This document shows, piece after piece, positions 4,713 through 26,283 of a DNA stretch of 49,247 bases (positions within the stretch are counted from its first letter, which is position 1; every line of letters begins with the position of its first letter). Both the position numbers and the translations under genes were made by a program. The notes under the pieces were generated by a model, which was not told the origin of the DNA, did no database searches, and was given only the letters and a program-made list of their open reading frames with translations. Origin of the DNA: Candidatus Woesearchaeota archaeon (lineage in GTDB: Archaea > Nanobdellota > Nanobdellia > Pacearchaeales > GW2011-AR1); contig CAZSNJ010000002.1 of NCBI GenBank assembly GCA_964608525.1, positions 1 through 49,247 on the forward strand, in the 5' to 3' direction.

Positions 4713-4714
4713 AT

Positions 4715-11539: not shown

Positions 11540-11540
11540 T

Positions 11541-12602
11541 ATGTCTTATAAAACTATGAAAATAAAAAAGTATTATGATTTTTTAAGAAGTAATAATTCA
11601 TTTTTGAAAACTAAATCTAATCAAAAGATAAAAATTCTTCTTAATATTCTAAAATACCTAAAATCAAACAAAAAATTAATTGTTAAAAATAAACCAATAA
11701 TTGCTCAAATAGAACCAACTTCTCATTGCAATCTTAAATGTGAGATGTGTATTAGAGAGAAAATAAATGTTTCTATTGGAACAATGTCTTTTAAAAATTT
11801 TAAAACAATCTTAGAAAAATTAGATTCATTATCTAAAATACATATTTCAGGACAAGGTGAACCTTTTCTTAATAAAGAATTATTTGATATGATAAAATAT
11901 GCAAATAAAAGAGGGATAACTGTTTTTTTTACAACAAATGGGACAATGTTAACAAAAGAAATTATTCATACGATATGCAAGGTAGATATAGGTGAAATAG
12001 GAATATCAATTGATTCTACAATTAAGGAAAAATATGAAAAAATAAGAAAAGGTGCCAATTTTAATAAAGTTAAAACAAATATAAAAAATTTAGTTAATGA
12101 GTTACAAAAGAGTAAGAAAAAAACGATTGTAAGTACAAGTGCAGTTATTTTAAAAGATAATTTTAATGAAATACCTGAATTTATAAAATTAGCAAATAGT
12201 CTTGGTATAAAAAAAGTTGGATTTCAAACAATTCAAGAAAAAAAAGATTATATTGATAAATATAATTCAAAAACAAAAACTCAAGTAGTTTCAAATTTTA
12301 ACAAAGAATTAAAAGAAAAAATAAAACAAGCAAAAAAAATTGCAAAAAAATACAAGATAACAGTTATATTTGATGAAGAAAAAAGTCCAGGATGTATCTG
12401 GCCTTGGAGAAGCATTTATATTACGTGGAATGGAAATATTACTCCTTGTTGTAAAATACTTGATTATAAAAAACCCTATTTTGGAAATATTTTAAAAGAA
12501 GATTTCTGGAAAATTTGGAATGGAAAAGAATATCAATTAACTAGGAAATTATTGAAACAAAGAAAAGCGCCTTTAACATGCAAGGGATGTAATATGGTTT
12601 AA
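11541..12602 (+). CDS. radical SAM enzyme with SPASM/twitch-like C-terminal domain
   Basis: IEPTSHCNLKCEMC, SGQGEPFLNK, C-terminal NGNITPCCK ... CKGCNM. The ATG at 11541 directly follows the upstream stop (11537-11539). The ORF track starts at 11520. Confidence 0.8.
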   Translation: MSYKTMKIKKYYDFLRSNNSFLKTKSNQKIKILLNILKYLKSNKKLIVKNKPIIAQIEPTSHCNLKCEMCIREKINVSIGTMSFKNFKTILEKLDSLSKIHISGQGEPFLNKELFDMIKYANKRGITVFFTTNGTMLTKEIIHTICKVDIGEIGISIDSTIKEKYEKIRKGANFNKVKTNIKNLVNELQKSKKKTIVSTSAVILKDNFNEIPEFIKLANSLGIKKVGFQTIQEKKDYIDKYNSKTKTQVVSNFNKELKEKIKQAKKIAKKYKITVIFDEEKSPGCIWPWRSIYITWNGNITPCCKILDYKKPYFGNILKEDFWKIWNGKEYQLTRKLLKQRKAPLTCKGCNMV

Positions 12603-13213
12603 GAAAGAACATATAAAATATCTCTTGCAAAACTTTGAGGAAATATCTTTGCTAAAAAATTCTTAAAAAATTGCGGTAAAAAGGAAGGGTTAGTTGGAGG
12701 AACATAATCTTTTTTTAAAATTTTAAATCCATTATTAATTAAGAATTTTTCTCCTGTTCTTATTGAAAAAAAATGTAAATGCCCGTATGGATCAAAAGGA
12801 TCTTTTGTTATAGGTTTATTAAAAAGAAATCTAATCTTATTTAAAACATGATAATCATTAGGAAAAGTTATAATTATTTTTCCATTTTCATTTAATCTTC
12901 TTTTTGAATCATAAAGAAGTTTTTTTGAATCTATTACATGTTCTAGTATATCTAATAAAAGGACATAATCAAATTTCTTATTTTTAAATGGAATTTCATC
13001 TTTATTCAAATCTGCTTGTTTCACATTTATATTTTTTTTAATTAATTCATTAACTAAATTTTTATCTATATCAACTCCAGAATATTTGCAATTTGGAATA
13101 AAATTCCGAAATATCCCCTTATTACATCCGATATCAAGTACTTGAGAATTATCTTTAATTAATTCTGCAACTTTCTTAAACTTATTTTCTAAAAAAATTT
13201 GATGATTGTCCAT
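12599..13213 (-). CDS. class I SAM-dependent methyltransferase
   Basis: VLDIGCNKGIF, SGVDID, FDYVLLLDILEHVIDSKKLL, NGKIIITFPN. Confidence 0.75.
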   Translation of the reverse strand: MDNHQIFLENKFKKVAELIKDNSQVLDIGCNKGIFRNFIPNCKYSGVDIDKNLVNELIKKNINVKQADLNKDEIPFKNKKFDYVLLLDILEHVIDSKKLLYDSKRRLNENGKIIITFPNDYHVLNKIRFLFNKPITKDPFDPYGHLHFFSIRTGEKFLINNGFKILKKDYVPPTNPSFLPQFFKNFLAKIFPQSFARDILYVLS

Positions 13214-13243
13214 TTGATAATTAGTAAATCTTTCCTTAAAAAT

Positions 13244-14146
13244 TTAAGTAGATTGTATTTCTTTTATTTCTACGCTTGTATGACCCAGTTCTTGTTTATT
13301 ATTTGTTGTAACCTTGACATCACAAGGATTGCATTGCCCATATTTATCACAATCCATAAAATCATCTTCAACAGAAAAAGAATTATCCGTTATATTCCCA
13401 ATAGGATTCTCTCTTGCATAAAGATCTCTATGACATCTATAAGTATCTCCTTTTGGTCCAATTAATAATTCAGAAGTTTTACATTTACAAGATTTTGTTT
13501 TTTCTTGAAGGGTAGACTTTGGAAATTTGGAATAATCCCCATAAGGTTCTCCCTTATATACTCCTGTAAAACTCTTAGTTCTAAAATCAATCTCTTTATC
13601 CTTACATATAAATTGCATTGTATCAGATATACTCGAAAGTTGTGTTGAACTAGGATATAGAACACTCCAAATTCCAATACTAAATCCTTTATCTTGTAAT
13701 AATTTTACATTATCTGCAAGTTTTACTGCATCATTCATCGCTTCTGGATGATAACTAACCCTTATAGAAGAATAAGGAGAATCTCTTTTAACTCTATTGG
13801 GGTCAACGTCAGATATAAACTTTTCTAATCCTTTTTTTCCCCACATTAAATTAGTAAGTATATCAATATTAAGTTCTGGTTTTAAATTATTAATTATATA
13901 AATAAAATCTTTATGTAAAAAAGGTTCTCCTCCGCCAAGAGTTATAGGTAAATTTTGTTTTGATTCAATCTTATTCAAGGCATTAACCCATTCTTCTCCT
14001 GAAATTTCGTTAAATTCATTTCTATTAAATTTAACCTCATTGCCTAAAGAATTTATACAAAAACTACAACTAAGATTGCATCTCATAGTTAAAAATGCTG
14101 CAATGTATTTATAGGTATCTGGAATAATTATTTCCCCTTTTTTCAT
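13244..14146 (-). CDS. radical SAM enzyme (Cys-rich C-terminus)
   Basis: FLTMRCNLSCSFCIN (CX3CX2C), LGGGEPFLHK, C-terminal CKCK...YRCH...CDKYGQCNPC. Confidence 0.75.
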   Translation of the reverse strand: MKKGEIIIPDTYKYIAAFLTMRCNLSCSFCINSLGNEVKFNRNEFNEISGEEWVNALNKIESKQNLPITLGGGEPFLHKDFIYIINNLKPELNIDILTNLMWGKKGLEKFISDVDPNRVKRDSPYSSIRVSYHPEAMNDAVKLADNVKLLQDKGFSIGIWSVLYPSSTQLSSISDTMQFICKDKEIDFRTKSFTGVYKGEPYGDYSKFPKSTLQEKTKSCKCKTSELLIGPKGDTYRCHRDLYARENPIGNITDNSFSVEDDFMDCDKYGQCNPCDVKVTTNNKQELGHTSVEIKEIQST

Positions 14147-14203
14147 AAATTGAGATTAAAAATAGGGTTTAAAAGAATTATTATGGATGAATATATACAA
14201 AAA

Positions 14204-14602
14204 CTATAGTCCTAATTTTTCCTTATTTTTTAAAATAAAATCCATGTAATAAGGGGCCAATTTTATTTTATGCAATTCTTCAAATCTAAAATAATTTAAT
14301 CTTTGACCTTCATTTAATTTAATTTTATTTAAAGGAGTATTTACTTGACCAATAAAGATAGAATTATTACAATTGTCCCCTGCCAAAATATTTCCAATAA
14401 ATTCTATTTTTCCTATATTAACATTTTCTATCTCCTCGTCTATTTCTCTTTTAATTGATTCTAAATCTGTTTCATCTTTTTCTGTTTCCCCTCCAATAAA
14501 ATCCCAATATCCTGGAAAAGGTATATCTAATTTATTATCTCTTAAAAATAACAAGAATTCTTTTTTAGAATTTAATAATATTATTTTTGATGCTCTTCTC
14601 AT
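14204..14602 (-). CDS. Nudix hydrolase (canonical Nudix box)
   Basis: GGETEKDETDLESIKREIDEEIE fits GX5EX7REUXEE exactly. Confidence 0.8.
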   Translation of the reverse strand: MRRASKIILLNSKKEFLLFLRDNKLDIPFPGYWDFIGGETEKDETDLESIKREIDEEIENVNIGKIEFIGNILAGDNCNNSIFIGQVNTPLNKIKLNEGQRLNYFRFEELHKIKLAPYYMDFILKNKEKLGL

Positions 14603-14669
14603 TTTATATAAATCTGCTTTATGATTTTTAATTCTTTTGGATGAATTATATCTTTTTTATAAAAAAGAA

Positions 14670-15650
14670 TTATTCTTTATGGATATATTCTAAGGGAAGT
14701 GTTTTAATTACGTTCCAATTTTTATCTACCCACTGAATACATTGTTCAATTCCCTTATCAAAATCTACTTCTGGTTTCCAATCCAAGCTGTCTCTTGCTT
14801 TGCTTGAATCTAAAAGATATTCTGAATCCTGTCCTTTTCTTTCGTCAACTACTTTAACAGAATCTTCAAAATTTTTCCCTACTTTTTTAAGAATCTTCCT
14901 AACCAAATTATTAATACTAATTCCTGAATCTGGAGATAAATGATATACTTCTCCATGATTAATATCTTCTAATATTTTCAATATACCGGCACAATCATCT
15001 TGAACATGAAGATATGATTTTATTGCTTTTCCTCCTCCATGAAGCTGTATTTTCTCTCCTAATTTTGTATAAATTATTGTACGCGGAATAATTCTAAACA
15101 ATTGTTGACCTGGACCATATACATTAGTAGATCTTACAAAACTTGCAGGAAAATTAAATTGTTTTATTAAATTTTGGATAAACATATCTCCTGCTGCTTT
15201 TGAAGATGCATAAGGGGTACTTGGATTAAAGGAGGTATCTTCATTAATTTCATTGCACGAACCATAAACTTCGGGAGTAGATACCTGAACATACTTTTCA
15301 AAGGATTTTATTCTCCTTGATTTATTTGTTAAATTAACAATTCCTAAACAATTAGTACGGAACCAATGTTCCGGATTATCCCAACTTTGTCCTACCATCC
15401 CTTGGGCAGCAAAATTAACTACTTTTTTTACCTTTTCTCCTTCAAAAATATCAATTATATCATCTAAGCCATTATTTATATTTCCTTGAAAAAATTTAAA
15501 TCCCTCCTTACCTTTATATGGAAGAAATATTGGATTGTATTCTGCAGATCTACTAATCCCAATTACTTTATAATTTGTATTCTCTAAAACATGATTAACA
15601 AAATGAGCTCCTGAAAATGAATTACTTCCAATAACTGCAATTTTGTCCAT
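14670..15650 (-). CDS. NAD(P)-dependent sugar epimerase/dehydratase (extended SDR)
   Basis: IAVIGSNSFSGAHFVNHV (Rossmann), STPEVYG, YASSKAAGD (YxxxK). Confidence 0.85.
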   Translation of the reverse strand: MDKIAVIGSNSFSGAHFVNHVLENTNYKVIGISRSAEYNPIFLPYKGKEGFKFFQGNINNGLDDIIDIFEGEKVKKVVNFAAQGMVGQSWDNPEHWFRTNCLGIVNLTNKSRRIKSFEKYVQVSTPEVYGSCNEINEDTSFNPSTPYASSKAAGDMFIQNLIKQFNFPASFVRSTNVYGPGQQLFRIIPRTIIYTKLGEKIQLHGGGKAIKSYLHVQDDCAGILKILEDINHGEVYHLSPDSGISINNLVRKILKKVGKNFEDSVKVVDERKGQDSEYLLDSSKARDSLDWKPEVDFDKGIEQCIQWVDKNWNVIKTLPLEYIHKE

Positions 15651-15689
15651 TTTTTAAATTAAGTAAGTTGATTTTTAAATATTTGTATA

Positions 15690-16814
15690 TTAAATAAAAT
15701 TAATATGTTGAGGGGGTTTTCCTTTTGGTTCTTCTAATTTAATACTTCCTTGTTTTACATTCCATAAATATTCATTAATTCTATCTTGACAACACATAAT
15801 TCCGCAATCAGTATGAACATTATGATTATCAGACGCTAGATGGTTTATAACTTCCCAATATTTATCGCTTTTCAAGATATCTTTAAAAGATGTTTCTGTA
15901 ATATTTCCTATGTGGTGCTGTTTATATTTTGAATTAAAAAGTTGTCCACATGGAGCAACTAATCCTGAACCTGATAATTGCATAAGAAAAGGAGTTCCAT
16001 AGCATTTAGAATATTTCTTTTCTCCTCCACTTAGAATTTTTGACCATTTAGCTTTAACGAAATAATTGTCCGTAGAGTATGCTTCAGCTTCTTCTAAAGT
16101 ATTAATTAAATCAGAATCAAGATATTCTTTATAATTTGATCCAAGTTCTCTTTTTTCATCATCACTACAATGTTTTATTACTAAATAATCTACTCCAAGA
16201 TCTTTTCCTAATTTTGTAAGAGGAATAACATCTTCCTTAAATTTTGGTAGAAATACCATTTGCATCCCAATTGTCACATCTAATTTTTTGTCTTTTTTAA
16301 TTTTAACACTTTTTTTAATATTTTCTATAACTTTATAGAAATCTTTTTCCTTACAACCATGAATTTCAGAGTATCTTTTTGGAACTCCTGCAGAAATATT
16401 AAACCTAAACCATGTAGAGGACCCTAATATTTTCTCTAGCTCTTCTTCCTTTAAAAGAGCCCCGTTTGTTGCAACAGCCATATCTACTCCTTTCTTTTTT
16501 CCATAAACTAAAGTTTCTGCAAAATGAGGTGAAACAGTACTTTCACCATCTCCCATAAGAATTACTCCTTTAACCCCTAATTCTGCACAATCATCTAAGA
16601 ATCTAAAGGTATGATCTTTAGTCATTTTTGTATTATCATTCTTTTGCAATTGACTGTAGCAATAAGTGCATTTAAAATTACAAGCTCTTGTTAAAGCATA
16701 ATCTATTGTAATTGGAACTATTCTTTCTCCTTTTAACCATGCTTCAACTCTATCTTTGTGCCAAGCTAATTTATGCCCATCCAAAATTATTGGTTCATTT
16801 CTCTTTTTATCCAT
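15690..16814 (-). CDS. radical SAM enzyme (paralog family with 18008..19057 and 22903..24063)
   Basis: DGHKLAWHKDRVEAW N-terminus, LTRACNFKCTYCY, MGDGESTVSP, C-terminal CYGTPF...APCG...CGIMCC. Confidence 0.8.
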   Translation of the reverse strand: MDKKRNEPIILDGHKLAWHKDRVEAWLKGERIVPITIDYALTRACNFKCTYCYSQLQKNDNTKMTKDHTFRFLDDCAELGVKGVILMGDGESTVSPHFAETLVYGKKKGVDMAVATNGALLKEEELEKILGSSTWFRFNISAGVPKRYSEIHGCKEKDFYKVIENIKKSVKIKKDKKLDVTIGMQMVFLPKFKEDVIPLTKLGKDLGVDYLVIKHCSDDEKRELGSNYKEYLDSDLINTLEEAEAYSTDNYFVKAKWSKILSGGEKKYSKCYGTPFLMQLSGSGLVAPCGQLFNSKYKQHHIGNITETSFKDILKSDKYWEVINHLASDNHNVHTDCGIMCCQDRINEYLWNVKQGSIKLEEPKGKPPQHINFI

Positions 16815-18006
16815 TTTTAGAGTATAATTCTTTTTTTTCTATAATTATTGCCGAGTTCTTAAAGGTTCCTAAGGTTTGATATGTTTCAAGAATTTGACTT
16901 GCAGTTTGAGGTTTATATATTGGTAAAGAAAATAAATTCTCAAAAGCTTTTGTAAAATTTTGAATATGTTGAGGTCCCGGATAAAGAGGAGTTTCTTCTC
17001 CTGCAACTGCTCTTATTAACACAGGTGCTTTAAATTGTCCTTCGGACATTGCTTCTAATTTATCTAAATGATTTACTAATGAATCTAGAGCAATCAACAT
17101 AAAATCATGTCTTTCAAAAAATAAAACAGGCTTGTAATTTGTTAAAGCTAAACCAATTGCTAATCCTGACATTAAATTTTCTGCTAGAGGAGTTTCTAAT
17201 AATTGGTTTTTAGGAATATTTGAAAGAGTACCATATGCTTTTGTTCCATATTTTATATTATAACCAATAAAAATTGCTTTTTTATCTTCTGCTAATTTTT
17301 CCATTGATTGTTTAATTGCTTCTCCGTAGGCAAGACTTGTTTCTAATTTAGAAGATTTTTCCTTTTTATGTTTTATTTTTTTATACCACTTTTTAATTTT
17401 TAGATTAGAGAAATCTATTCTTTTTCCAGTATCATAATGAGGATATGTTGATTTGTAATTATATCTTTTAACACATGAAGGCCAATTAAATTCAGATTGA
17501 TTATAACGATCTTTTTTTGGTGTAGCAACAGATCTATTATTATCTTCAATAATAAAAGTACAAGGGAGATTCCAACCATCAACATATCTTGCTGCTTCAG
17601 AAAAATGTCCTTCTTCCTCGGCACCATCACCTAAAAAACACCAAACATGATTTTTGCTTTTGTTTTTTTTAAGTCCTAAAGCTACTCCTGCAGCAATTGG
17701 TGTACCGCCTGCAACAATTGATGAAGTAAGAAAATTTATATCTTTATCAAAAATGTGCATACTTTTTCCATCTAAAATCTTCTTTTCTAAAACTTTTGGA
17801 GAACCCCCTTTTAAAAGATAATGATAATGACTTCTATGTGTTGAAAATACATAATCTTCTTCTTTTATATCTTTAAAAATTTCAATTAATTGTTCTTCAT
17901 TTCCTCCAGAAAGATGAATTGGACAAGAAAGTTTGCCTTTTTCCCAAAGATTAGCAATATGCCTTTCAAAATCAATTAATTCTTGTTTGGTTATCTTCTT
18001 TCTCAT
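16807..18006 (-). CDS. ThDP-dependent dehydrogenase E1-like protein, compact alpha-beta fusion
   Basis: The N-half is E1-alpha-like (STHRSHYHYLLKGG; GDGAEEEG...IIEDNN = GDG-X27-NN ThDP motif). The C-half is like the E1-beta pyrimidine-binding domain (LETPLAENLMSGLAIGLAL, FFERHDF). The ATG at 18006 lies 1 nt after the upstream stop, giving 399 aa. The ORF track starts at 18033. Confidence 0.7.
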   Translation of the reverse strand: MRKKITKQELIDFERHIANLWEKGKLSCPIHLSGGNEEQLIEIFKDIKEEDYVFSTHRSHYHYLLKGGSPKVLEKKILDGKSMHIFDKDINFLTSSIVAGGTPIAAGVALGLKKNKSKNHVWCFLGDGAEEEGHFSEAARYVDGWNLPCTFIIEDNNRSVATPKKDRYNQSEFNWPSCVKRYNYKSTYPHYDTGKRIDFSNLKIKKWYKKIKHKKEKSSKLETSLAYGEAIKQSMEKLAEDKKAIFIGYNIKYGTKAYGTLSNIPKNQLLETPLAENLMSGLAIGLALTNYKPVLFFERHDFMLIALDSLVNHLDKLEAMSEGQFKAPVLIRAVAGEETPLYPGPQHIQNFTKAFENLFSLPIYKPQTASQILETYQTLGTFKNSAIIIEKKELYSKNG

Positions 18007-18007
18007 T

Positions 18008-19057
18008 TTATATAAAATTATCATGCGGTTCATGATTTTTTAATCTATGTAAATACCTATTAATTGGATCTAATCTGCATCCCTTTCTACATTCCGAAAT
18101 TCCCTGTTGTCTTATTTTTTCTATCACTTGTTTTCTTTTAGCTCCCTTCCAAATTTCATTAAAATTAGCTTTATATATATTCCCATAGCTAAATTCTTCA
18201 TTTTTATAAAATAGATTGCACGGAATAACATTCCCTTTTGAATCTATTAATGTAAAAAAAGGAAGACCATAACATTCAGAATAATTAATTCCTTCATTAA
18301 TCCTTTTTGCTGTTTGTTTCCTAAATAATACTTTAAAATTATCTGAATCAAATTCAGTTAATTTTTCTTCAAGTTGATTAAATACATCAATTCCTACTGA
18401 ATAATCATTAATACTACTAGGGTGATGGGAATAAGGTTTAATCTGAAGATTATCTGCCCCAATATTTTTTAATATTTTTGCCAGTTTTGGTGCTTCATTT
18501 ATATTTTTGGATATTGCTAAAAATTGAGTCCCTATTGTTGGATCTAAATTATTCTTCTCTTTATATTCAACACATTTTCTTATATTTTTTATTACTCTAA
18601 AAAAATCTTCTTTTTTTGTCTTATGAACTTGTGAATAATTTTTAGAACTACCTGAATTAATGCTAAATCTTAGCCATGAAAGATTTGGTAAAATTTGTTT
18701 TATTTTTTCATCAGTAAAAGGAACACCATTTGTAGTCATAGAGACATCTATTCCAGATTTTTTTGCTGTTTCTACAAATAAGCCTATATTCTTATGTAAT
18801 AAAGGTTCTCCTTCTCCTGCAAACATAACTGATTTTACCCCTTGCTCCCCCATATTTTTTAATGTTGATACCATAATATCCTTGTCAATAAAATCTCTTC
18901 CATATTCTAAATAATCAAGAGCACAAAAAGCACATCTATGATTACAAGTATTAGTTGGTCCTATTTCCACATAAATTGGATAACAATCTTCCTCTTTTTT
19001 CCATTCAGCAACTCTTTCAGGATGAAACATTAATTTATGGTTATCTACATCTATCAT
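18008..19057 (-). CDS. radical SAM enzyme (paralog of 15690..16814)
   Basis: DNHKLMFHPERVAEW, PTNTCNHRCAFC, AGEGEPLLHK, C-terminal CYGLPF...IPCN...CRKGC. Confidence 0.8.
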   Translation of the reverse strand: MIDVDNHKLMFHPERVAEWKKEEDCYPIYVEIGPTNTCNHRCAFCALDYLEYGRDFIDKDIMVSTLKNMGEQGVKSVMFAGEGEPLLHKNIGLFVETAKKSGIDVSMTTNGVPFTDEKIKQILPNLSWLRFSINSGSSKNYSQVHKTKKEDFFRVIKNIRKCVEYKEKNNLDPTIGTQFLAISKNINEAPKLAKILKNIGADNLQIKPYSHHPSSINDYSVGIDVFNQLEEKLTEFDSDNFKVLFRKQTAKRINEGINYSECYGLPFFTLIDSKGNVIPCNLFYKNEEFSYGNIYKANFNEIWKGAKRKQVIEKIRQQGISECRKGCRLDPINRYLHRLKNHEPHDNFI

Positions 19058-19085
19058 TTTTTATATAATGAGACTAAAATTTCTA

Positions 19086-19319
19086 TTAAAGAAAATCAGA
19101 ATGTTCTTTTGATACATCACAATTATCTAGAGTTATTTCTAATTTTCCGGAGGTTATTTTTCCGTCTTTTATTTCTTGCTCCATAATCTCATTGAATGAA
19201 TCAAGAACTTTCTTGTATTTTTCACTATCTTCTTTACTAATATTTGAATTTGTCAATAAACCTACTGCTCCATAAGATTCTATATTTGTAAGGTCATATC
19301 CTATTTTAAGTTTTCTCAT
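19086..19319 (-). CDS. small hypothetical protein (77 aa)
   Basis: ATG ORF wedged between the aminotransferase and a radical SAM gene on the same strand. No motif. Confidence 0.4.
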   Translation of the reverse strand: MRKLKIGYDLTNIESYGAVGLLTNSNISKEDSEKYKKVLDSFNEIMEQEIKDGKITSGKLEITLDNCDVSKEHSDFL

Positions 19320-19331
19320 TTTTACCTCCTT

Positions 19332-20450
19332 TCATTTTTTATATTTAAAAAATTTATGAATAGTTTCTATTACATACTCTACTTGTTCATTAGTTAATTC
19401 AGGGTGAATTGGAAGAGATAAAATTTCCTTACATATTTTTTCATTTATTGGAAAATTGTAATTAGGCAAATTTAATTTTTGATTATGGTGCAATGGTTCT
19501 GAAAAATGAGCAAATACTTCTATACCATTTAGTTCTAAAAAATCCATAAGCTCTTGCTGATAAGATGTACGAATTACATATGAATTATATGTATCAAAAT
19601 AATCTTGTTGTGAAAGCAAAGGAGGTAGTATTAAAGGTAAATCTGCTAATCTTTCAGCGTAGATTGATGCTATTTCTCTTCTTCTTTTTATAAATTGATC
19701 AAGTAATTTAAATTTAACATTTAAGATAGCTGCTTGTAAATTATCTAATCTAGAATTAAAACCAAAGCAGACAATTTTTTTCCCTTTTTCAGTTAATTTT
19801 TGACAATGGTCTCTTAAATATCTTATTTTTTCAGCTATTTCATCATTATTTGTAGAAACAAAGCCTCCATCTCCTCCACAACTTAAAGTTTTCATTGGGT
19901 GTGTAGAAAAACAACCAGTTAATCCAAAACTGCCTGCTTTTTTTCCCTTATAAAGTGAGCCAAGAGATTGACAAGCATCTTCAATAATTATTAAATTATA
20001 TTTTCGTGCTATTTCTATTAATCTATCCATATTACACATTCTTCCATTTAAATGAACAGGAATTATTGCTTTTGTCTTATCTGTTATTGCCTTTTCAACT
20101 TCTTCAATATCCATATTAAAATCCTCTTTGATATCAACTAAAACTGGCTTAGCTTTTCTATGAACTATTGCAGCAATTGTTGCAACAAATGTATGAGCTA
20201 CAGTTATTACCTCATCTCCTTCTTTTATCCCTGCAGCTTCTACAGAAAGGGATAAAGCATCTGTTCCAGAATTAACTCCAATAACATGTTTTACATCTAG
20301 ATAAGAGGCCATATTATCTTCAAATTTTTTAACATCATCTCTAAGAATAAAACTTCCTTCTTTCATAACTCTTTTAAATTCTTCTGTAAGTTCTTTTTCT
20401 GAATTTTCAAATTGTAAAGAAAGATCAATATAAGGTACTTTCCATTTCAT
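19332..20450 (-). CDS. DegT/DnrJ/EryC1/StrS-family PLP-dependent sugar aminotransferase
   Basis: FEDNMASYLDVKHVIGVNSGTDAL, VITVAHTFVAT, STHPMKTLSCGGDGGF (Lys-containing PLP motif). Confidence 0.85.
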   Translation of the reverse strand: MKWKVPYIDLSLQFENSEKELTEEFKRVMKEGSFILRDDVKKFEDNMASYLDVKHVIGVNSGTDALSLSVEAAGIKEGDEVITVAHTFVATIAAIVHRKAKPVLVDIKEDFNMDIEEVEKAITDKTKAIIPVHLNGRMCNMDRLIEIARKYNLIIIEDACQSLGSLYKGKKAGSFGLTGCFSTHPMKTLSCGGDGGFVSTNNDEIAEKIRYLRDHCQKLTEKGKKIVCFGFNSRLDNLQAAILNVKFKLLDQFIKRRREIASIYAERLADLPLILPPLLSQQDYFDTYNSYVIRTSYQQELMDFLELNGIEVFAHFSEPLHHNQKLNLPNYNFPINEKICKEILSLPIHPELTNEQVEYVIETIHKFFKYKK

Positions 20451-20453
20451 TTT

Positions 20454-21413
20454 TTAATAAATTTTTTTTACCTCCTTATAAACAGTTTCAGGAAAAATAG
20501 ATTCCATACATTGTTTCTCTTCATTACACTTTATATCAAAACAAGGAATACATTTTTTATATTTTTGAGATTGTTCTGGCAAAAGGGCTTTTCCTCTCTC
20601 ATAAAAATAAACTTCTTTATGAGGTGTTGGTCCAAAAAGTCCTAATACTTTTTTCTTGAGAGCTATCCCTAAATGCATTCCTAAACTATCATTTGTTACA
20701 ATTAACTTACAAGAATTAATCCAATCCATATATTTATTCAAATCAGTAGTTATCTCTTTATGTTTTTTATCATCTTGCCTGCTTACTTTAAATCCATCTC
20801 CTTTCAAAAGTTTCTCTAATCTATCCCAATTTTTTTTAGGCCAACTTTTTATAGGCCACTTGGGACCAATTTGAGTATTTAATCCAATATCATAAATTTC
20901 TCCATTATTTGGTTTGTAACCCAAAACATATTCTTCTCCATCCCATTCTTTTCCTACAACTTTAAATAAAAGTTTTTGAGCAGTCTGTAAATTACTTTTT
21001 TTAAGATGAGGGCTAACGCTTAAAGACAATATATCAAGAGCATTATCAAAAGCTTTAGTTTTTCCTGCACTCTTATCAAATCTAAATCCCTTTTTGTTCC
21101 AAGCATCCACTTTATTTGCAAATTTACAAATATCTATATTCTTCTCTAAATTAATTAATATATCAAATTCTTCATCTAACAAATGCATTGCATTTTCAAA
21201 ATCAAGAGGCAATAATCTGTTAATGTATTTATTTTGCTCCAGTAAAGGATATGCGGCTTTATCTGTTAACCAAGTAACATTATCTTTTGCATAAAGATGT
21301 AATAATGTTGTTGATCTTAAAACATCACCTAAACTAACTTTTTTTAAATGATTCTCAACATCTAGTATCTCAGAATAACCTGTTTTAATGATTAATACTC
21401 TCTCTTTTTCCAT
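20454..21413 (-). CDS. glycosyltransferase family 9 (heptosyltransferase-like)
   Basis: LIVTNDSLGMHLGIALKKKVLGLFGPT matches the GT9 signature (xxDSGxMHLAxAxxxPxxxLFGPT). Confidence 0.7.
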   Translation of the reverse strand: MEKERVLIIKTGYSEILDVENHLKKVSLGDVLRSTTLLHLYAKDNVTWLTDKAAYPLLEQNKYINRLLPLDFENAMHLLDEEFDILINLEKNIDICKFANKVDAWNKKGFRFDKSAGKTKAFDNALDILSLSVSPHLKKSNLQTAQKLLFKVVGKEWDGEEYVLGYKPNNGEIYDIGLNTQIGPKWPIKSWPKKNWDRLEKLLKGDGFKVSRQDDKKHKEITTDLNKYMDWINSCKLIVTNDSLGMHLGIALKKKVLGLFGPTPHKEVYFYERGKALLPEQSQKYKKCIPCFDIKCNEEKQCMESIFPETVYKEVKKIY

Positions 21414-21464
21414 AAGAAATCAGGATAGAAATGAATTTAAAAGTATTATGTATCTAAAATTCAA

Positions 21465-22730
21465 CTATTTATTTTCCACAACTTCCTTAATAAACTTTTC
21501 TAATCTTTGAAAATTTTTATCCATATCAAAATCTTCTCTTGCTTTTTTAACATTTCTTATAAGTTGGGAATAATTTAATTTTTTTAATCTTTTTTTTAAT
21601 GTCTTTAAATTCTGAATTTTATAAGGAATACTAACTCCATATTTATCTAATAATTCTCCTGTAAAAATAGCATCATCCTCATATATTAACGGAAGCCCTG
21701 CTTCTAGATAAGAAGCTATTTTATTTCCTGTTGAAAATTTTAATTCTAAGTCATATTTTGAAAGTTCTGTTTTGGGTCCTGAAGGATAAAGCCCATAATC
21801 ATATTTTGATATTTCAGCTGCTATTTTATCTGGTTCTAAAGGTAAATGGAAATGGAAATATTTTGATTTTAAAAGATCTCCATATGCTCTTGTAAATGCA
21901 GAATCTTCTTTAAAGAATTTTGTTAGTTGTTCTTTTGAAATAGAATTTGGTCTTGAATATATATGTATATGAATTTGTTGGTTTACTAAATCATTTAGAG
22001 TATTATAAACATATTTTGCTCCAATAGGTCCAACATTTCCCATAGAATCAATATGAACTATATGGATTTCTTTATCTTTCTTTGAAAGCTTATTTTTATT
22101 AATAGGAACATTAAATTCTTTTAAACAATAAGGAAGAAAACTTAGAGTGAGAGGAGATAATTTTATGTTGTCTCCTAACATTCTTCCATTTAAAAATTCC
22201 AATTCTTTATTATATCCCTTATGCATTATTCCTTTAGCATTCTCAAAACAAAATCTTTCTGCATTAAGTTCAAATTTTGACATTCCTCCAAACTTTATTG
22301 CATGTTCAACACTTTTGTAATACTGGCAACGAATATCATAAGGAAAATAAATTATTGGGATTTTTTTAAATAATTTCATAGTTAATGCACATGGCCAACT
22401 TGGAGAGCCCCTGGTAAAGATTGCATAAGGTCTTAGTTTTAAGATAGAAATCATAGATTTAAAGAGCTCTTTAGATTGTTTAATTAAAGATAATAAAATT
22501 AAATGAGCATTTTTTAAATTTATTTTAAAAAAACTAAGATCCAAGAAGATTATTTTATCAAAAGCTCCTTTATGAAATTCTTTTGATGCTCCTTTTGATT
22601 CTAAAAGAATTATTAAAGTTGTTTCATATCCTTTTTTCTTAAATAATCTAGCTATTTTATAGACCATAACTGTTGGAAAGGGTTCTAGAAAAACTATTTG
22701 TTTTTTGTTTTTCTGTTTAAGTTTCATCAT
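21465..22730 (-). CDS. putative GT-B fold glycosyltransferase-like protein
   Basis: 421 aa. Two Rossmann-like halves, with the C-terminal STGNKIASYLEAGLPLIYEDD resembling the GT1/GT4 donor-binding region. First gene of the long minus-strand operon. Confidence 0.4.
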   Translation of the reverse strand: MMKLKQKNKKQIVFLEPFPTVMVYKIARLFKKKGYETTLIILLESKGASKEFHKGAFDKIIFLDLSFFKINLKNAHLILLSLIKQSKELFKSMISILKLRPYAIFTRGSPSWPCALTMKLFKKIPIIYFPYDIRCQYYKSVEHAIKFGGMSKFELNAERFCFENAKGIMHKGYNKELEFLNGRMLGDNIKLSPLTLSFLPYCLKEFNVPINKNKLSKKDKEIHIVHIDSMGNVGPIGAKYVYNTLNDLVNQQIHIHIYSRPNSISKEQLTKFFKEDSAFTRAYGDLLKSKYFHFHLPLEPDKIAAEISKYDYGLYPSGPKTELSKYDLELKFSTGNKIASYLEAGLPLIYEDDAIFTGELLDKYGVSIPYKIQNLKTLKKRLKKLNYSQLIRNVKKAREDFDMDKNFQRLEKFIKEVVENK

Positions 22731-25731: not shown

Positions 25732-25742
25732 GTTATATAAAA

Positions 25743-26153
25743 ATGGTTTTTAAGGATTTAGATAATAAAATATATAAAGAGAAAAACAGCCTAAATCTTA
25801 TGATACAAAGAAACGTTGTAATTGCTATTATCTTAAACAATAATAATGAAGTTCTTCTTCAAAAAAAGGATTTGGGACATCCATGGCTTCCTGGAAAGTG
25901 GTGTTTTTTTGGAGGAAAGCTTGAAGAAGGGAGTAACTCTAAAGATATACTTAAAGAAATATTAAAAAGAAAAATTGGAATTGAAGTTGATATTATTAAA
26001 TTTTTAAAAACTTCTCCATACAAAATTGAACATTCAAAAGGGATAGAAGAGGGGGAAGATTATATCTATCTTTGTAGGTTTAATGGAAAACTATCTGATA
26101 TAAAACTTGATGAAGGGGCAGGTTTTGCATTTTTAGATAAAAAAGAATTATAA
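25743..26153 (+). CDS. Nudix-fold protein with degenerate Nudix box; possibly truncated by an in-frame TAA
   Basis: GGKLEEGSNSKDILKEILKRKIGI aligns to the Nudix box but has S, EI and RK at the GX5E, RE and EE catalytic positions. 21 sense codons continue in frame after the TAA at 26151-26153, up to 26219. Alternative start at 25800 (MIQRNVV). Confidence 0.6.
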   Translation: MVFKDLDNKIYKEKNSLNLMIQRNVVIAIILNNNNEVLLQKKDLGHPWLPGKWCFFGGKLEEGSNSKDILKEILKRKIGIEVDIIKFLKTSPYKIEHSKGIEEGEDYIYLCRFNGKLSDIKLDEGAGFAFLDKKEL

Positions 26154-26283
26154 ACAATTCCAATTACAAAACATAGTCTAAAAATTTTAAAAGAATATTT
26201 TGAATCCAGAGGTAAATAAAGAATTAAATTATTATAAAACATATTAATAAATCCTTATAAAATAAAAAATTATAAATTCATCA

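What the first reader, a model, noticed from the sequence alone, without database searches (positions are those of the whole stretch)
12599..22730. Eleven-gene co-directional operon with DesI/DesII-like logic plus a ThDP two-carbon enzyme
Seen: an uninterrupted minus-strand run with tiny gaps or overlaps. The order is GT-B-like (21465-22730), GT9 (20454-21413), DegT aminotransferase (19332-20450), 77-aa ORF, radical SAM (18008-19057), fused E1 (16807-18006, 1-nt spacing), radical SAM (15690-16814, 8-nt overlap), SDR epimerase/dehydratase (14670-15650), Nudix (14204-14602), radical SAM (13244-14146) and methyltransferase (12599-13213).

Established: in desosamine synthesis a 4,6-dehydratase, the DegT-family aminotransferase DesI and the radical SAM deaminase DesII together remove the C4 hydroxyl. 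ThDP enzymes add two-carbon branches to keto-sugars (YerE in yersiniose). From memory, and to be verified, PDH-E1-like alpha/beta pairs such as AviB1/AviB2 in avilamycin do the same.

Inference: this operon makes a deoxy, two-carbon-branched and methylated nucleotide sugar and transfers it.
Basis: partly seen in the sequence, partly recalled or inferred. Interest (0 to 1): 0.75.

Follow-up and report, generated by a model that had tools for sequence, protein, structure and literature searches.

The report
Radical-SAM and thiamine sugar-tailoring operon
The eleven-gene run is real and sits in a marine DPANN archaeon, but its core is an uncharacterised, widely conserved cassette (glycosyltransferase, two paralogous radical SAM enzymes and a stripped-down thiamine enzyme), not a desosamine-style DesI/DesII pathway; it probably builds an unusual surface sugar.

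Summary
Eleven minus-strand ORFs lie at the stated coordinates with gaps of at most 67 nt, and every domain call holds, including the GT-B fold of the first gene.

The radical SAM enzymes 18008 and 15690 are paralogs with one 4-Cys auxiliary cluster. They fail the DesII model, although DesII is their nearest solved relative. The DegT resembles C3-aminotransferases more than DesI.

The conserved unit elsewhere is GT9, rSAM349, E1, rSAM374 and often rSAM300. It occurs in DPANN, CPR and anaerobic bacteria. Gene fusions link GT9 to rSAM349, the E1 Pyr domain to rSAM374, and E1 to rSAM300. The DegT and SDR genes are almost never part of this unit.

A second class of close E1 orthologs has a Zn-alcohol dehydrogenase directly upstream and no radical SAM genes; the two classes never overlap. 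Both recur beside heptose-pathway genes.

Best model: a radical SAM (or NAD-dependent) dehydrogenase makes a sugar carbonyl, and the E1-like enzyme adds a two-carbon unit, as AviB1/AviB2 do. Amination, methylation and transfer follow.

I found no description of this cassette. I rate it a new variant of known chemistry, with moderate to high interest.

The parts
21465..22730 (-). GT-B fold glycosyltransferase (GT4-like, 421 aa), first gene of the run
   Evidence: No Pfam hit. Homologs carry precomputed PF26337 Gtf3_C. The AlphaFold model has pLDDT 91. Foldseek best matches are MshA, BshA, sucrose-phosphate synthase and Gtf3. Orthologs lie next to GT9 in L009 and L088; an L089 homolog lies about 7 kb from GT9.
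20454..21413 (-). GT9 (heptosyltransferase family) glycosyltransferase, 319 aa
   Evidence: PF01075 scores 49.8 bits. It falls below the cutoffs of all the WaaC/WaaF/WaaQ NCBIfam models. It is present in 8 of 16 loci with the rSAM374 ortholog. It is fused to the rSAM349 ortholog in L089.
19332..20450 (-). DegT-family PLP sugar aminotransferase, 372 aa (lineage-specific insertion into the conserved scaffold)
   Evidence: PF01041 scores 357 bits. The motif STHPMK is present in the sequence; I take its Lys to be the PLP-binding lysine by recalled analogy with other DegT enzymes, not by alignment. Best PDB matches: 7b0d at 321 bits, QdtB 268, DesV 236, WbpE 219, DesI only 115. Orthologs at 39-55% identity lie directly beside two-subunit E1 genes in L011, L021, L022 and L023. 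L154 also has DegT genes, the second ending 186 nt from the divergently transcribed split E1.
19086..19319 (-). 77-aa ORF of unknown function, lineage-specific
   Evidence: No Pfam or NCBIfam hit. No tblastn match in any of 169 related loci, even at E up to 10. The identical protein is on record in 22 contigs.
18008..19057 (-). rSAM349: radical SAM enzyme with one auxiliary 4-Cys cluster site (twitch-like), paralog of 15690
   Evidence: CNHRCAFC motif at residue 38. It is 33% identical to rSAM374 (E 5e-54). The four invariant C-terminal Cys of the family are present, here C262, C280, C323 and C327. Best PDB match by sequence is DesII (E 3e-5), then BtrN. It co-occurs with the rSAM374 ortholog in 14 of 16 loci.
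16807..18006 (-). Minimal fused E1-like ThDP enzyme (PP domain + Pyr domain, about 399 aa; ORF extends to 18033)
   Evidence: E1_dh matches profile positions 6-175 of 300 only. Transket_pyr matches 4-172 of 174. There is no Transketolase_C domain. The GDG...N ThDP motif and the Pyr-domain residue E285 (in the ETPLAENL motif) are invariant; I take E285 to be the cofactor-activating Glu by recalled analogy with E1 beta, not by alignment. PDB matches are PDH E1 alpha (residues 36-172) and E1 beta (residues 236-404) at about E 1e-10. The family has at least 1151 members.
15690..16814 (-). rSAM374: radical SAM enzyme with one auxiliary 4-Cys cluster site; the most conserved member of the cassette
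   Evidence: CNFKCTYC motif at residue 45. Invariant residues are C271, C289, C337 and C341, an N-terminal D-x-HKL-x-x-H motif and a C-terminal H-x-NFI motif. It is 59-71% identical to the 120 best-scoring hits, which include DPANN, CPR, Omnitrophica and Deltaproteobacteria members. Six fusion clusters join a Transket_pyr domain to this family. The model has pLDDT 92; best fold match is DesII, then SkfB, anSME, SuiB and BlsE.
14670..15650 (-). Extended SDR of the dTDP-glucose 4,6-dehydratase type, 326 aa (lineage-specific insertion)
   Evidence: TIGR01181 scores 217 bits against a cutoff of 365. Best PDB match is RmlB 6bi4 at 169 bits; the alignment shows STPEVYG against STDEVYG. The YxxxK motif is present. 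No ortholog is found in 16 triad loci.
14204..14602 (-). Nudix hydrolase, 132 aa
   Evidence: PF00293 scores 40 bits. The Nudix box G-x5-E-x7-REIxEE is readable in the sequence. Orthologs follow the cassette in L005, L009 and L088.
13244..14146 (-). rSAM300: third radical SAM enzyme with a Cys-rich C-terminus, a core cassette member
   Evidence: CNLSCSFC motif at residue 23 and six C-terminal Cys. SPASM hit is weak. It is present in 9 of 16 triad loci. It is fused to the C-terminus of E1 in P0014, 697 aa, seen in L005 and L006.
12599..13213 (-). MetW-like class I SAM methyltransferase, 204 aa, last gene of the run
   Evidence: PF13489 and PF07021 each score about 68 bits. A 59%-identical ortholog lies downstream of the E1-rSAM300 fusion in L005.

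Best explanation
The run is a surface-glycan sugar-tailoring and sugar-transfer operon of a marine Pacearchaeota (DPANN) archaeon.

**Architecture.** It is built on a conserved scaffold: GT-B, GT9, rSAM349, E1-like ThDP enzyme, rSAM374, Nudix, rSAM300 and a methyltransferase. A DegT aminotransferase (with a 77-aa ORF) and an SDR have been inserted into that scaffold.

**Proposed mechanism**
1. *Carbonyl formation (inferred).* One of the two paralogous radical SAM enzymes acts as an anaerobic dehydrogenase, like BtrN, or like DesII acting on a hydroxy substrate. Each has a single fully Cys-ligated auxiliary cluster site. The enzyme oxidises a secondary alcohol of an activated sugar to a ketone. 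The sugar is most likely a heptose-pathway intermediate.
2. *Two-carbon addition (by analogy with AviB1/AviB2 and Pau11/Pau12).* The minimal E1-like ThDP enzyme decarboxylates pyruvate. It has lost the parts of PDH E1 that serve the lipoyl-E2 complex. It adds the two-carbon unit to the new carbonyl.
3. *Further tailoring (inferred).* The second paralog and rSAM300 perform further radical steps, such as a second oxidation, an epimerisation or a deoxygenation. In this archaeon the SDR and the C3-type DegT add a keto-to-amino conversion. The methyltransferase methylates the product.
4. *Transfer (inferred).* GT9 and the GT-B enzyme transfer the product. The surrounding island supplies the flippase, more glycosyltransferases and five B12-radical SAM enzymes, which I take to be C-methylases on general knowledge (not tested).

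**Shown:** gene content, domain anatomy, conservation, fusions and the two alternative dehydrogenase contexts.

**Inferred:** every chemical step and the identity of the sugar.
For: **Cassette conservation.** Of 16 loci with an rSAM374 ortholog (at least 45% identity):
- 15 have E1
- 14 have rSAM349
- 9 have rSAM300
- 8 have GT9
- 9 have a B12-radical SAM
- 1 has the DegT
- 0 have the SDR

These loci come from Nanoarchaeota, Magasanikbacteria-like CPR, Desulfobacterales, Desulfuromonadaceae, Nitrospirae and Elusimicrobia.

**Fusions.**
- E1 + rSAM300: P0014, 697 aa.
- Transket_pyr + rSAM374: six 90%-identity clusters.
- L089 carries both a GT9 + rSAM349 fusion and a Pyr + rSAM374 fusion, in the same gene order as the window.

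**Alternative dehydrogenase.** In 52 loci, a close E1 ortholog (at least 40% identity) lies in the same locus and orientation as a Zn-ADH gene (at least 35% identity to the L008 ADH). In 44 of them the ADH ends within about 165 nt upstream of E1, mostly within 25 nt. None of these loci has the radical SAM orthologs, and none of the 16 radical SAM loci has the ADH.

**Heptose link.**
- L001: GT9, GmhB, GmhA, PfkB, cytidylyltransferase-like and epimerase genes beside rSAM + E1.
- L008: ADH, E1, GmhB, HldE.
- L122: adh_short, ADH, E1, PfkB, epimerase, cupin, GHMP kinase, SIS.
- L154: GmhA, SDR, HldE-like, epimerase, rSAM374 ortholog, two DegT genes, split E1, Wzx.
- HldE-like genes are present in 18 of 31 well-flanked E1 loci.

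**Radical SAM anatomy.** CxxxCxxC plus exactly four invariant C-terminal Cys. A twitch domain binds one auxiliary cluster, and BtrN's is 4-Cys ligated and proposed as the electron acceptor in a two-electron oxidation (PMC9012708). The nearest fold is DesII, which dehydrogenates the 4-hydroxy analogue. BlsE, which acts on a sugar nucleoside, also ranks high.

**E1 anatomy.** The ThDP motif is intact. Half of E1 alpha and the whole Transketolase_C domain are missing. No E2 or E3 gene is found in the 49-kb window.

**Precedent.** PDH-like AviB1/AviB2 and Pau11/Pau12 install two-carbon sugar branches (PMC4425429).

**DegT-E1 link.** DegT lies beside E1 in five loci: directly adjacent in L011, L021, L022 and L023, and across a 186-nt divergent gap in L154.
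Against: - No enzyme of this cassette has been characterised, so every step rests on analogy.
- The window itself has no GmhA, GmhB or HldE homolog. The heptose assignment comes only from related loci.
- Fold similarity to DesII (TM 0.66-0.69) is only slightly better than to the peptide maturases SkfB and SuiB (TM 0.60-0.63).
- In many ADH-type loci a PfkB-like kinase directly follows E1. This would fit E1 acting on a sugar phosphate before nucleotide activation, not on a keto-sugar nucleotide.
- The mutual exclusion of ADH and radical SAM genes is a correlation, not proof that they catalyse the same step.
- The roles of rSAM300, the Nudix hydrolase and the second paralog are guesses.
Confidence: 0.5

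Rival explanations
1. A 4,6-dehydratase (the SDR), a DesI-like DegT and a DesII-like radical SAM remove the C4 hydroxyl of an NDP-hexose. The E1 enzyme then adds a two-carbon branch and the methyltransferase finishes the sugar.
For: - All the required enzyme classes are present in the run.
- DesII is the top PDB relative of both paralogs.
- L011 shows an SDR, E1 alpha/beta, DegT and methyltransferase set without radical SAM genes. An NDP-6-deoxyhexose route with E1 and DegT therefore exists in nature.
Against: - DesII model: 53 and 30 bits against a cutoff of 450. DesI model: 142 bits against 650.
- The paralogs have an auxiliary 4-Cys cluster site and lack DesII's N-terminal domain.
- The DegT is nearer to C3-aminotransferases than to DesI.
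- The SDR lacks the catalytic Asp of RmlB.
- The radical SAM enzymes occur with a DegT ortholog in only 1 of 16 orthologous loci.
Confidence: 0.15
2. E1 works like DXS or transketolase at the sugar-phosphate level. It condenses a two-carbon unit with an aldose phosphate to build a new deoxy-ketose or higher-carbon skeleton. A dehydrogenase, a kinase and a nucleotidyltransferase then process and activate it, and GT9 transfers it.
For: - E1 has weak DXP_synthase_N hits.
- A PfkB-like kinase directly follows E1 in L003 and L122, and an HldE-like kinase-nucleotidyltransferase is present in 18 of 31 E1 loci.
- From general knowledge, the pairing of a Zn-ADH with a cytidylyltransferase-like gene recalls TarJ/TarI and the MEP pathway.
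Against: - GmhA, GmhB and HldD homologs in several loci point to the ordinary heptose route, not a new skeleton.
- Radical SAM dehydrogenases run only in the oxidative direction. They cannot replace a ketoreductase acting after E1.
- The GT9-rSAM and E1-rSAM fusions suggest action on or near the transferred sugar.
Confidence: 0.15
3. E1 is not a carbon-carbon bond-forming enzyme here. It acts as a dedicated pyruvate-oxidising electron source, a miniature PFOR, that reduces the iron-sulfur clusters of the fused or adjacent radical SAM enzymes. This would suit organisms with minimal redox metabolism.
For: - E1 domains are fused to two different radical SAM families, rSAM300 and rSAM374.
- From general knowledge, DPANN and CPR genomes are metabolically reduced.
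Against: - 52 loci carry close E1 orthologs paired with a Zn-ADH and no orthologs of these radical SAM genes.
- Two-subunit E1 pairs with DegT without any radical SAM in L011 and L021-L023.
- E1 shows no iron-sulfur Cys motif beyond residues that, from my recollection of the human E1 alpha sequence (not checked with a tool), are also present in ordinary E1 alpha.
Confidence: 0.06
4. The SPASM-type radical SAM enzymes mature a ribosomal peptide, with the 77-aa ORF as precursor, or modify a protein. The glycosyltransferases then glycosylate it.
For: - Pfam SPASM hits.
- Peptide maturases such as SkfB, SuiB and PapB appear among the weak matches.
- From general knowledge, some GT9 enzymes glycosylate proteins.
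Against: - The 77-aa ORF is absent from all 169 related loci.
- The N-terminal extension is about 35 residues, too short for a peptide-recognition domain.
- Only one auxiliary cluster site is present.
- The neighbourhood consists of sugar genes, a Wzx flippase and heptose-pathway genes.
- The best fold match is DesII.
Confidence: 0.03

Closest known systems
AviB1/AviB2 (avilamycin) and Pau11/Pau12 (paulomycin): PDH-E1-like alpha/beta pairs that install a two-carbon branch on a keto-sugar
   Same: Both are E1-type ThDP enzymes encoded in a sugar-tailoring cluster without E2 or E3. Pyruvate is the presumed two-carbon donor. The more distant relatives in L012-L016, L087 and similar loci are still two full-length subunits. 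The precedent is documented in PMC4425429.
   Different: - The window enzyme is a single, roughly 400-aa fusion that has lost half of E1 alpha and the whole Transketolase_C domain.
- It is flanked by, and in other genomes fused to, radical SAM enzymes.
- It occurs in archaeal, CPR and anaerobe glycan loci linked to heptose genes, not in actinomycete antibiotic clusters.
- I could not obtain the AviB1/B2 sequences, so no direct sequence comparison was made.
DesI/DesII (TDP-desosamine C4 deoxygenation)
   Same: A DegT aminotransferase and a radical SAM enzyme lie in one sugar operon. DesII is the nearest solved structure to both paralogs. DesII can also act as a dehydrogenase on the hydroxy analogue (PMC11434129).
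   Different: - Scores are far below the family cutoffs.
- An auxiliary 4-Cys cluster site is present and the N-terminal helical domain is absent.
- The DegT is of the C3-aminotransferase type.
- The radical SAM enzymes are conserved without any DegT.
BtrN (butirosin), a twitch-domain radical SAM dehydrogenase
   Same: Both have a radical SAM core plus one auxiliary [4Fe-4S] site with four Cys ligands, and both act on a small carbohydrate-like substrate. BtrN performs a two-electron oxidation of an alcohol to a ketone that feeds an aminotransferase (PMC9012708). The replacement of the radical SAM genes by a Zn-ADH in other E1 loci parallels, from my own knowledge, the BtrN versus NAD-dependent NeoA situation.
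   Different: Sequence similarity is weak (E 1e-4, core only) and Foldseek ranks BtrN only 36th. The new family has its own invariant N-terminal D-x-HKL-x-x-H and C-terminal H-x-NFI motifs.
ADP-heptose pathway (GmhA, HldE, GmhB, HldD) with GT9 heptosyltransferases
   Same: A GT9 enzyme is in the operon. GmhA-, GmhB-, HldE- and HldD-like genes lie beside the E1 module in L001, L008, L122, L154 and other loci.
   Different: The window has none of the heptose-synthesis genes. Its GT9 scores below every WaaC/WaaF/WaaQ cutoff. The hosts are an archaeon and CPR bacteria without LPS.
YerE (yersiniose), a ThDP flavoenzyme that adds a two-carbon branch
   Same: The same proposed chemical outcome: a two-carbon branch from pyruvate on a keto-sugar (cited in PMC4425429).
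   Different: From general knowledge, YerE belongs to the acetolactate-synthase-type ThDP family with Pyr-then-PP domain order. The window enzyme is E1/transketolase-type, with PP-then-Pyr order.

Membership tests
DesII (dTDP-4-amino-4,6-dideoxy-D-glucose ammonia-lyase, TIGR04426) | Score at or above the curated equivalog cutoff (450 bits) | tested here: not met
   rSAM349 scores 53.4 bits and rSAM374 scores 30 bits.
DesII | Single [4Fe-4S] cluster, an N-terminal six-helix domain of about 130 residues and a cluster-free C-terminal domain | tested here: not met
   Four invariant C-terminal Cys form an auxiliary cluster site, and the N-terminal extension is only about 35 residues. DesII architecture is taken from PMC11434129.
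DesII | Overall fold similarity | tested here: met
   DesII 8hzv is the top Foldseek hit for the rSAM374 model, with E 6e-16 and TM 0.66-0.69. It is also the top sequence hit for rSAM349, at E 3e-5.
DesI (TIGR04427) | Score at or above the cutoff (650 bits), and closer to DesI than to other sugar aminotransferases | tested here: not met
   The model score is 142 bits. PDB comparison gives DesI 2po3 at 115 bits against QdtB 268, DesV 236 and WbpE 219.
dTDP-glucose 4,6-dehydratase RmlB (TIGR01181) | Score at or above the cutoff (365 bits) and the catalytic T-D-E plus YxxxK motifs | tested here: not met
   The score is 217 bits. The alignment to 6bi4 shows TPE in place of TDE. YxxxK is present. 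From general knowledge GMD-type dehydratases also lack the Asp, so dehydratase activity is not excluded.
Pyruvate dehydrogenase complex E1 (alpha + beta) | Full-length E1 alpha, E1 beta with Transketolase_C, and partner E2/E3 genes | tested here: not met
   Only E1_dh profile positions 6-175 of 300 are matched and PF02780 is absent. NCBIfam scores are 94 against 394 (alpha) and 72 against 321 (beta). No E2 or E3 domain is found in any window ORF of at least 100 aa.
ThDP-dependent enzyme (transketolase/E1 superfamily) | GDG...N cofactor motif in the PP domain and a cofactor-activating Glu in the Pyr domain | tested here: met
   G135, D136, G137, E163, N165 and E285 are invariant in 16 sequences. 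That E285 is the cofactor-activating Glu is assumed by analogy with E1 beta, not shown by alignment.
AviB1/AviB2-type sugar two-carbon branching E1 | E1-like genes inside a sugar-tailoring cluster, without a PDH complex | tested here: met
   The context is shown.
AviB1/AviB2-type sugar two-carbon branching E1 | Specific sequence relationship to AviB1/AviB2, and a demonstrated two-carbon transfer | not testable with these tools
Twitch-domain radical SAM dehydrogenases (BtrN-like) | CxxxCxxC motif plus one auxiliary cluster site ligated by four Cys | tested here: met
   C45, C49 and C52, plus C271, C289, C337 and C341, are invariant across both paralog groups. The definition is from PMC9012708.
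Twitch-domain radical SAM dehydrogenases (BtrN-like) | Two-electron alcohol oxidation activity | not testable with these tools
   This needs anaerobic enzymology.
RiPP radical SAM/SPASM maturases | Peptide-recognition domain, two auxiliary clusters (7-8 Cys) and a conserved adjacent precursor peptide | tested here: not met
   The N-terminus is short, only four conserved C-terminal Cys are present, and orf77 is not conserved.
GT9 heptosyltransferases | PF01075 above the gathering score; specific WaaC/WaaF/WaaQ equivalog | tested here: inconclusive
   PF01075 scores 49.8 against a threshold of 22, so the family criterion is met. All NCBIfam heptosyltransferase models score below cutoff, so donor and acceptor remain unknown.
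GT-B fold glycosyltransferases (GT4-like) | Two Rossmann-like domains that match solved GT-B enzymes | tested here: met
   The model has pLDDT 91. MshA, BshA and Gtf3 match with E 2e-11 to 3e-9.
Nudix hydrolases | Nudix box G-x5-E-x7-REUxEExGU | tested here: met
   PF00293 scores 40 bits. The sequence GETEKDETDLESIKREIDEE carries the G-x5-E-x7-RE-I-x-EE core; the final G is replaced by E.

The most novel reading that the evidence does not exclude
The E1-like ThDP enzyme and the radical SAM enzymes form a physical complex, as the E1-rSAM300, Pyr-rSAM374 and GT9-rSAM349 fusions suggest. In this complex a radical-generated sugar intermediate is coupled directly to the ThDP-bound two-carbon unit. 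The product would be a previously unknown branched or chain-extended heptose-derived sugar decorating the surfaces of DPANN archaea, CPR bacteria and many anaerobes. This would be a new enzymatic logic that merges radical SAM and thiamine chemistry.
Probability: 0.2. Interest if true: 0.9.

Novelty: new variant of a known kind. Interest (0 to 1): 0.66.

Why it matters
The surface chemistry of DPANN archaea and CPR bacteria is almost unknown, yet it must mediate their attachment to hosts.

This cassette is widespread. The E1 search returned at least 1151 proteins with E <= 0.001, and its 120 best hits are close full-length relatives. The 120 best-scoring rSAM374 relatives are 59-71% identical and include members of several phyla.

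The cassette repeatedly fuses a glycosyltransferase, a thiamine enzyme and radical SAM enzymes. I found no functional annotation and no paper about it.

If the model is right, three things follow:
- It defines an oxygen-independent route to branched or extended (heptose-type) sugars.
- It gives a natural experiment in which radical SAM dehydrogenases and NAD-dependent dehydrogenases replace each other.
- It offers a compact, roughly 400-aa ThDP carboligase scaffold of possible biocatalytic use.

Tried and rejected
- **Bacterial promoter and terminator scan**. Promoter-like hits equal the shuffled expectation, and the host is an archaeon, so the scan says nothing about the transcript.
- **Three literature searches** for the gene combination (and part of 31). 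None found a paper that describes the cassette.
- **The 77-aa ORF as a conserved partner or precursor.** There was no match in 169 loci, so I rejected this.
- **Heptose-synthesis genes in the window itself.** None were found.
- **NCBIfam equivalog assignment.** Every operon protein is below its cutoff, so no specific function can be transferred.
- **Genome-collection scan with the E1 profile**. I needed the metagenome scan to obtain enough close relatives.
- **E1 as a PFOR-like reductant source.** I considered this and ranked it low because of the ADH-type and DegT-type E1 loci that lack radical SAM genes.

Full report
**1. Observation**

The eleven minus-strand ORFs are present exactly as listed. 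Going downstream from 22730, the spacings are 51, 3, 12, 28, 1, -8 (overlap), 39, 67, 57 and 30 nt, so about 97% of the 10.1 kb is coding.

The E1 ORF opens at 18033 and public gene callers start it at 18024 (405 aa).

Upstream, a 172-nt AT-rich spacer separates the run from a divergently transcribed radical SAM gene at 22903-24063. Downstream, a convergent radical SAM/SPASM gene at 11520-12602 overlaps the last gene by 4 nt.

No terminator-like hairpin falls in a minus-strand gap. The scan uses bacterial patterns and the host is an archaeon, so it is not informative. Co-transcription is likely but not shown.

**2. Identity of the genes**

Pfam and NCBIfam confirm the following:
- a MetW-like methyltransferase (12599)
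- a radical SAM protein with a Cys-rich tail (13244, here rSAM300)
- a Nudix hydrolase (14204)
- an extended SDR of the dTDP-glucose 4,6-dehydratase type (14670)
- a radical SAM/SPASM protein (15690, rSAM374)
- a fusion of the N-terminal half of E1_dh with Transket_pyr (16807)
- a second radical SAM/SPASM protein (18008, rSAM349)
- a 77-aa ORF without hits
- a DegT aminotransferase (19332)
- a GT9 glycosyltransferase (20454)

No protein reaches the curated cutoff of any specific NCBIfam family.

The first gene (21465) had no Pfam hit. Its family carries a precomputed Gtf3_C assignment. A confident AlphaFold model (pLDDT 91) matches the GT-B enzymes MshA, BshA, sucrose-phosphate synthase and Gtf3.

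**3. Host and surroundings**

The proteins are identical to entries MAH03307 to MAH03317 of a Candidatus Pacearchaeota archaeon (DPANN) assembled from Tara Oceans data, all with generic names. The window also encodes the following, which fits an archaeal chromosome with about 26% G+C:
- an archaeal-type cluster of ribosomal protein genes with an RNA polymerase subunit gene (Rpb3/RpoA-type Pfam hits)
- a DUF655 gene and SecD/SecF genes
- a diphthamide-synthase-like gene

The operon lies inside a glycan island of about 35 kb with these features:
- eleven radical SAM genes, five of them B12-binding paralogs
- an NTP-transferase/GT4 fusion and further GT4-type genes
- methyltransferases
- a Wzx-type flippase
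- a split transketolase

No E2 or E3 component of a 2-oxoacid dehydrogenase complex is present.

**4. Tests of the DesI/DesII reading**

*The radical SAM paralogs.*
- rSAM349 and rSAM374 score 53 and 30 bits on the DesII equivalog model, against a cutoff of 450.
- They are paralogs (33% identity, E 5e-54).
- Both groups share an invariant CxxxCxxC motif and exactly four invariant C-terminal cysteines (C271, C289, C337 and C341 in rSAM374 numbering).
- Both also share a family-specific N-terminal D-x-HKL-x-x-H motif and a C-terminal H-x-NFI motif.
- Four C-terminal cysteines indicate one fully ligated auxiliary cluster, the twitch arrangement of BtrN (PMC9012708).
- DesII, by contrast, has a single cluster, a six-helix N-terminal domain and a cluster-free C-terminal domain (PMC11434129).

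*Similarity to DesII.*
- DesII is nevertheless the nearest solved relative. It is the best sequence hit for rSAM349 (E 3e-5).
- It is also the best Foldseek hit for a confident rSAM374 model (pLDDT 92; E 6e-16; TM 0.66-0.69). It ranks ahead of SkfB, anSME, SuiB and the sugar-nucleoside decarboxylase BlsE.

*The DegT.* It has the STHPMK motif; I read its Lys as the PLP lysine by recalled analogy with other DegT enzymes. It matches a glutamine:scyllo-inositol transaminase and the C3-aminotransferases QdtB, DesV and WbpE (321 to 219 bits) much better than DesI (115 bits).

*The SDR.* It aligns end to end with RmlB but reads STPEVYG where RmlB has the catalytic STDEVYG.

Membership in the DesI, DesII and RmlB families is therefore not met. 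A DesII-like or BtrN-like way of working remains plausible.

**5. Comparative genomics**

*Family size and sources.* The E1 fusion belongs to a large family of roughly 390-400-aa 'thiamine pyrophosphate-dependent enzymes' (at least 1151 hits). I collected 169 related loci from single look-ups, a genome scan and a metagenome scan. I then scored them by tblastn with the window proteins and with heptose-pathway queries.

*Finding (a): the conserved cassette.*
- Sixteen loci have an rSAM374 ortholog of at least 45% identity.
- Of these, 15 have E1, 14 rSAM349, 9 rSAM300, 8 GT9, 9 a B12-radical SAM and 11 a small GT2.
- Only 1 has a DegT ortholog and none has the SDR.
- The loci come from Nanoarchaeota, a Magasanikbacteria-like CPR bacterium, Desulfobacterales, Desulfuromonadaceae, Nitrospirae and Elusimicrobia.
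- The 120 best-scoring rSAM374 relatives are 59-71% identical to the window protein and include members of several phyla.
- L009 is almost collinear with the window: Wzx, GT-B, GT9, rSAM349, E1, rSAM374, Nudix, rSAM300.
- The DegT with orf77, and the SDR, are therefore insertions into a conserved scaffold.
- In the bacterial loci, E1 is still two full-length subunits with Transketolase_C. GT-C (PMT_2) glycosyltransferases accompany it in L012, L014 and L087.

*Finding (b): gene fusions.*
- P0014 is E1 + rSAM300, followed by Nudix and the MetW-like methyltransferase.
- Six 90%-identity clusters are Transket_pyr + rSAM374 fusions.
- L089 encodes a GT9 + rSAM349 fusion, a separate E1 PP-domain protein and a Pyr + rSAM374 fusion, in the window's gene order.

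*Finding (c): a second class of E1 loci.*
- In 52 loci, an E1 of at least 40% identity shares the locus and orientation with a Zn-ADH gene (at least 35% identity to the L008 ADH).
- In 44 of these the ADH ends within about 165 nt upstream of E1, mostly within 25 nt.
- These loci have no radical SAM orthologs.
- The two classes never overlap: 0 of 31 well-flanked loci, and 0 of 16 radical SAM loci.

*Finding (d): the heptose link.* Heptose-pathway genes recur next to both classes.
- L001: GT9, GmhB, GmhA, PfkB, cytidylyltransferase-like and epimerase genes.
- L008, a Prochlorococcus single-cell genome: ADH, E1, GmhB, HldE.
- L122.
- L154, a DPANN-like locus: GmhA, SDR, HldE-like, epimerase, rSAM374 ortholog, two DegT genes, split E1 and Wzx.
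- HldE-like genes are found in 18 of 31 well-flanked E1 loci.
- The window itself has none of these genes.

*Finding (e): the DegT-E1 link.* DegT orthologs (39-55% identity) lie directly beside two-subunit E1 genes in four other loci. One of these, L011, reads SDR, E1 alpha, E1 beta, DegT, methyltransferase. In L154 the nearer DegT gene ends 186 nt from the divergently transcribed split E1.

**6. Anatomy of E1**

- The GDG...N ThDP motif and the Pyr-domain residue E285 are invariant. I take E285 to be the cofactor-activating glutamate by analogy with E1 beta.
- The enzyme keeps only E1_dh profile positions 6-175 of 300 and lacks Transketolase_C.
- From general knowledge, these missing parts of PDH E1 form the lipoyl-domain channel and bind E2.
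- Together with the absence of E2 and E3 genes, this points to a free-standing decarboxylase or carboligase, not a dehydrogenase complex.
- PDH-like AviB1/AviB2 and Pau11/Pau12 are the documented precedent for such enzymes adding a two-carbon branch to a 4-keto-sugar, possibly after the sugar has been attached (PMC4425429).

**7. Most likely mechanism**

1. A dehydrogenase creates a sugar carbonyl. Here it is a twitch-type radical SAM enzyme. Elsewhere it is a Zn-ADH, sometimes with an adh_short enzyme.
2. The E1-like enzyme decarboxylates pyruvate and adds the two-carbon unit to that carbonyl.
3. The second paralog and rSAM300 carry out further radical steps.
4. In this archaeon the SDR and the C3-type DegT add a keto-to-amino conversion, and the methyltransferase methylates the product.
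5. GT9 and the GT-B enzyme transfer the product, and the Wzx flippase exports the glycan.

The sugar is most likely derived from the heptose pathway. The supporting points are GT9 and the heptose genes in related loci. From general knowledge, Nudix enzymes often act on ADP-sugars.

The logic that a radical SAM dehydrogenase can only oxidise argues that the exchangeable dehydrogenase acts before E1, not after it.

Gene content, anatomy, conservation and fusions are shown. Every chemical step is inferred. I put 0.5 on this model as a whole.

**8. Rivals**

- E1 as a DXS- or transketolase-like builder of a sugar-phosphate skeleton (0.15) is suggested by the PfkB-like kinase that follows E1 in ADH-type loci.
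- E1 as a pyruvate-driven reductant for the radical SAM clusters (0.06) is suggested by the fusions. It is contradicted by the many E1 loci without these radical SAM genes.
- Peptide maturation (0.03) is contradicted by the missing recognition domain, the single auxiliary cluster, the non-conserved 77-aa ORF and the sugar context.

**9. Novelty**

The individual chemistries have precedents: an E1-type two-carbon branch, twitch radical SAM oxidation, DegT amination and GT9 transfer.

The following features carry only generic annotation and did not appear in three literature searches:
- the conserved and repeatedly fused GT9, rSAM, E1, rSAM, rSAM cassette
- the roughly 400-aa minimal E1
- the alternation with NAD-dependent dehydrogenases
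- the spread through DPANN, CPR and anaerobic bacteria

I therefore classify it as a new variant of a known kind. There is a minority chance (about 0.2) that radical SAM and ThDP chemistry are directly coupled, which would be categorically new.

**10. Limits**

- Identity thresholds for paralog-rich families were set by hand.
- Some loci are duplicates of the same genome (L001/L002, L003/L004 and L131/L132).
- Many metagenomic loci are short.
- The taxonomy of the metagenome loci is unknown.
- Reference sequences for AviB1/B2, AprD4 and AviX12 could not be obtained.

Noticed in passing
window 5574-37652: The window has eleven radical SAM genes in about 32 kb. Five are B12-binding paralogs (5574, 8132, 28026, 33053, 36042) that are 22-34% identical to each other. 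B12-radical SAM genes also accompany the cassette in L009 and L087-L089. This suggests extensive radical C-methylation of the same glycan.
   Followed up: partly
window 22903-24063 (+) and 11520-12602 (+): Two further radical SAM genes flank the operon, one divergent and one convergent. They are distant paralogs (22-26% identity) of rSAM349 and rSAM374. The convergent gene overlaps the last operon gene by 4 nt.
   Followed up: partly
window 29612-31380: A split transketolase (N-terminal part 279 aa, C-terminal part 308 aa) is encoded inside the glycan island. It could supply sedoheptulose-7-phosphate for a heptose route, or it may be ordinary pentose-phosphate metabolism.
   Followed up: no
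window 40617-42474: A tRNA cluster includes a 90-nt tRNA that ARAGORN could not assign ('tRNA-???'). A LAGLIDADG homing-endonuclease-like ORF (40803-41804) overlaps tRNA-Arg(CCT) (40751-40827) at its 3' end.
   Followed up: no
window 43001-45221: AT skew is strongly negative (-0.31 to -0.35) over an archaeal ribosomal-protein cluster (S11, S4, S13) with a DUF655 gene on the minus strand; the Rpb3-type RNA polymerase subunit gene lies just below it at 42511-43227.
   Followed up: partly
L008 (Prochlorococcus sp. AG-402-G19, QCHU01000030.1) 1624-5695: A single-cell genome labelled Prochlorococcus carries the NAD-dependent version of the module: Zn-ADH, a roughly 400-aa E1, GmhB and HldE. The minimal E1 family therefore also occurs in aerobic marine bacteria, unless the contig is a contaminant.
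   Followed up: partly
L012, L014 and L087: In some bacterial versions of the cassette, GT-C (PMT_2, ArnT-like) glycosyltransferases accompany the radical SAM/E1 genes: three in L014 and one each in L012 and L087. A small GT2 recurs in 11 of 16 cassette loci. TPR proteins were seen in L014 only. This hints that the modified sugar may be carried on a polyprenyl phosphate and transferred outside the membrane.
   Followed up: partly
window 24916-27963: An inositol-monophosphatase-family gene, a second Nudix gene (30% identical to the operon Nudix), an HD-domain gene and an aldo-keto reductase gene sit between the operon and the next B12-radical SAM gene. An aldo-keto reductase is listed as pau7 in the paulomycin gene cluster (PMC4425429).
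   Followed up: no
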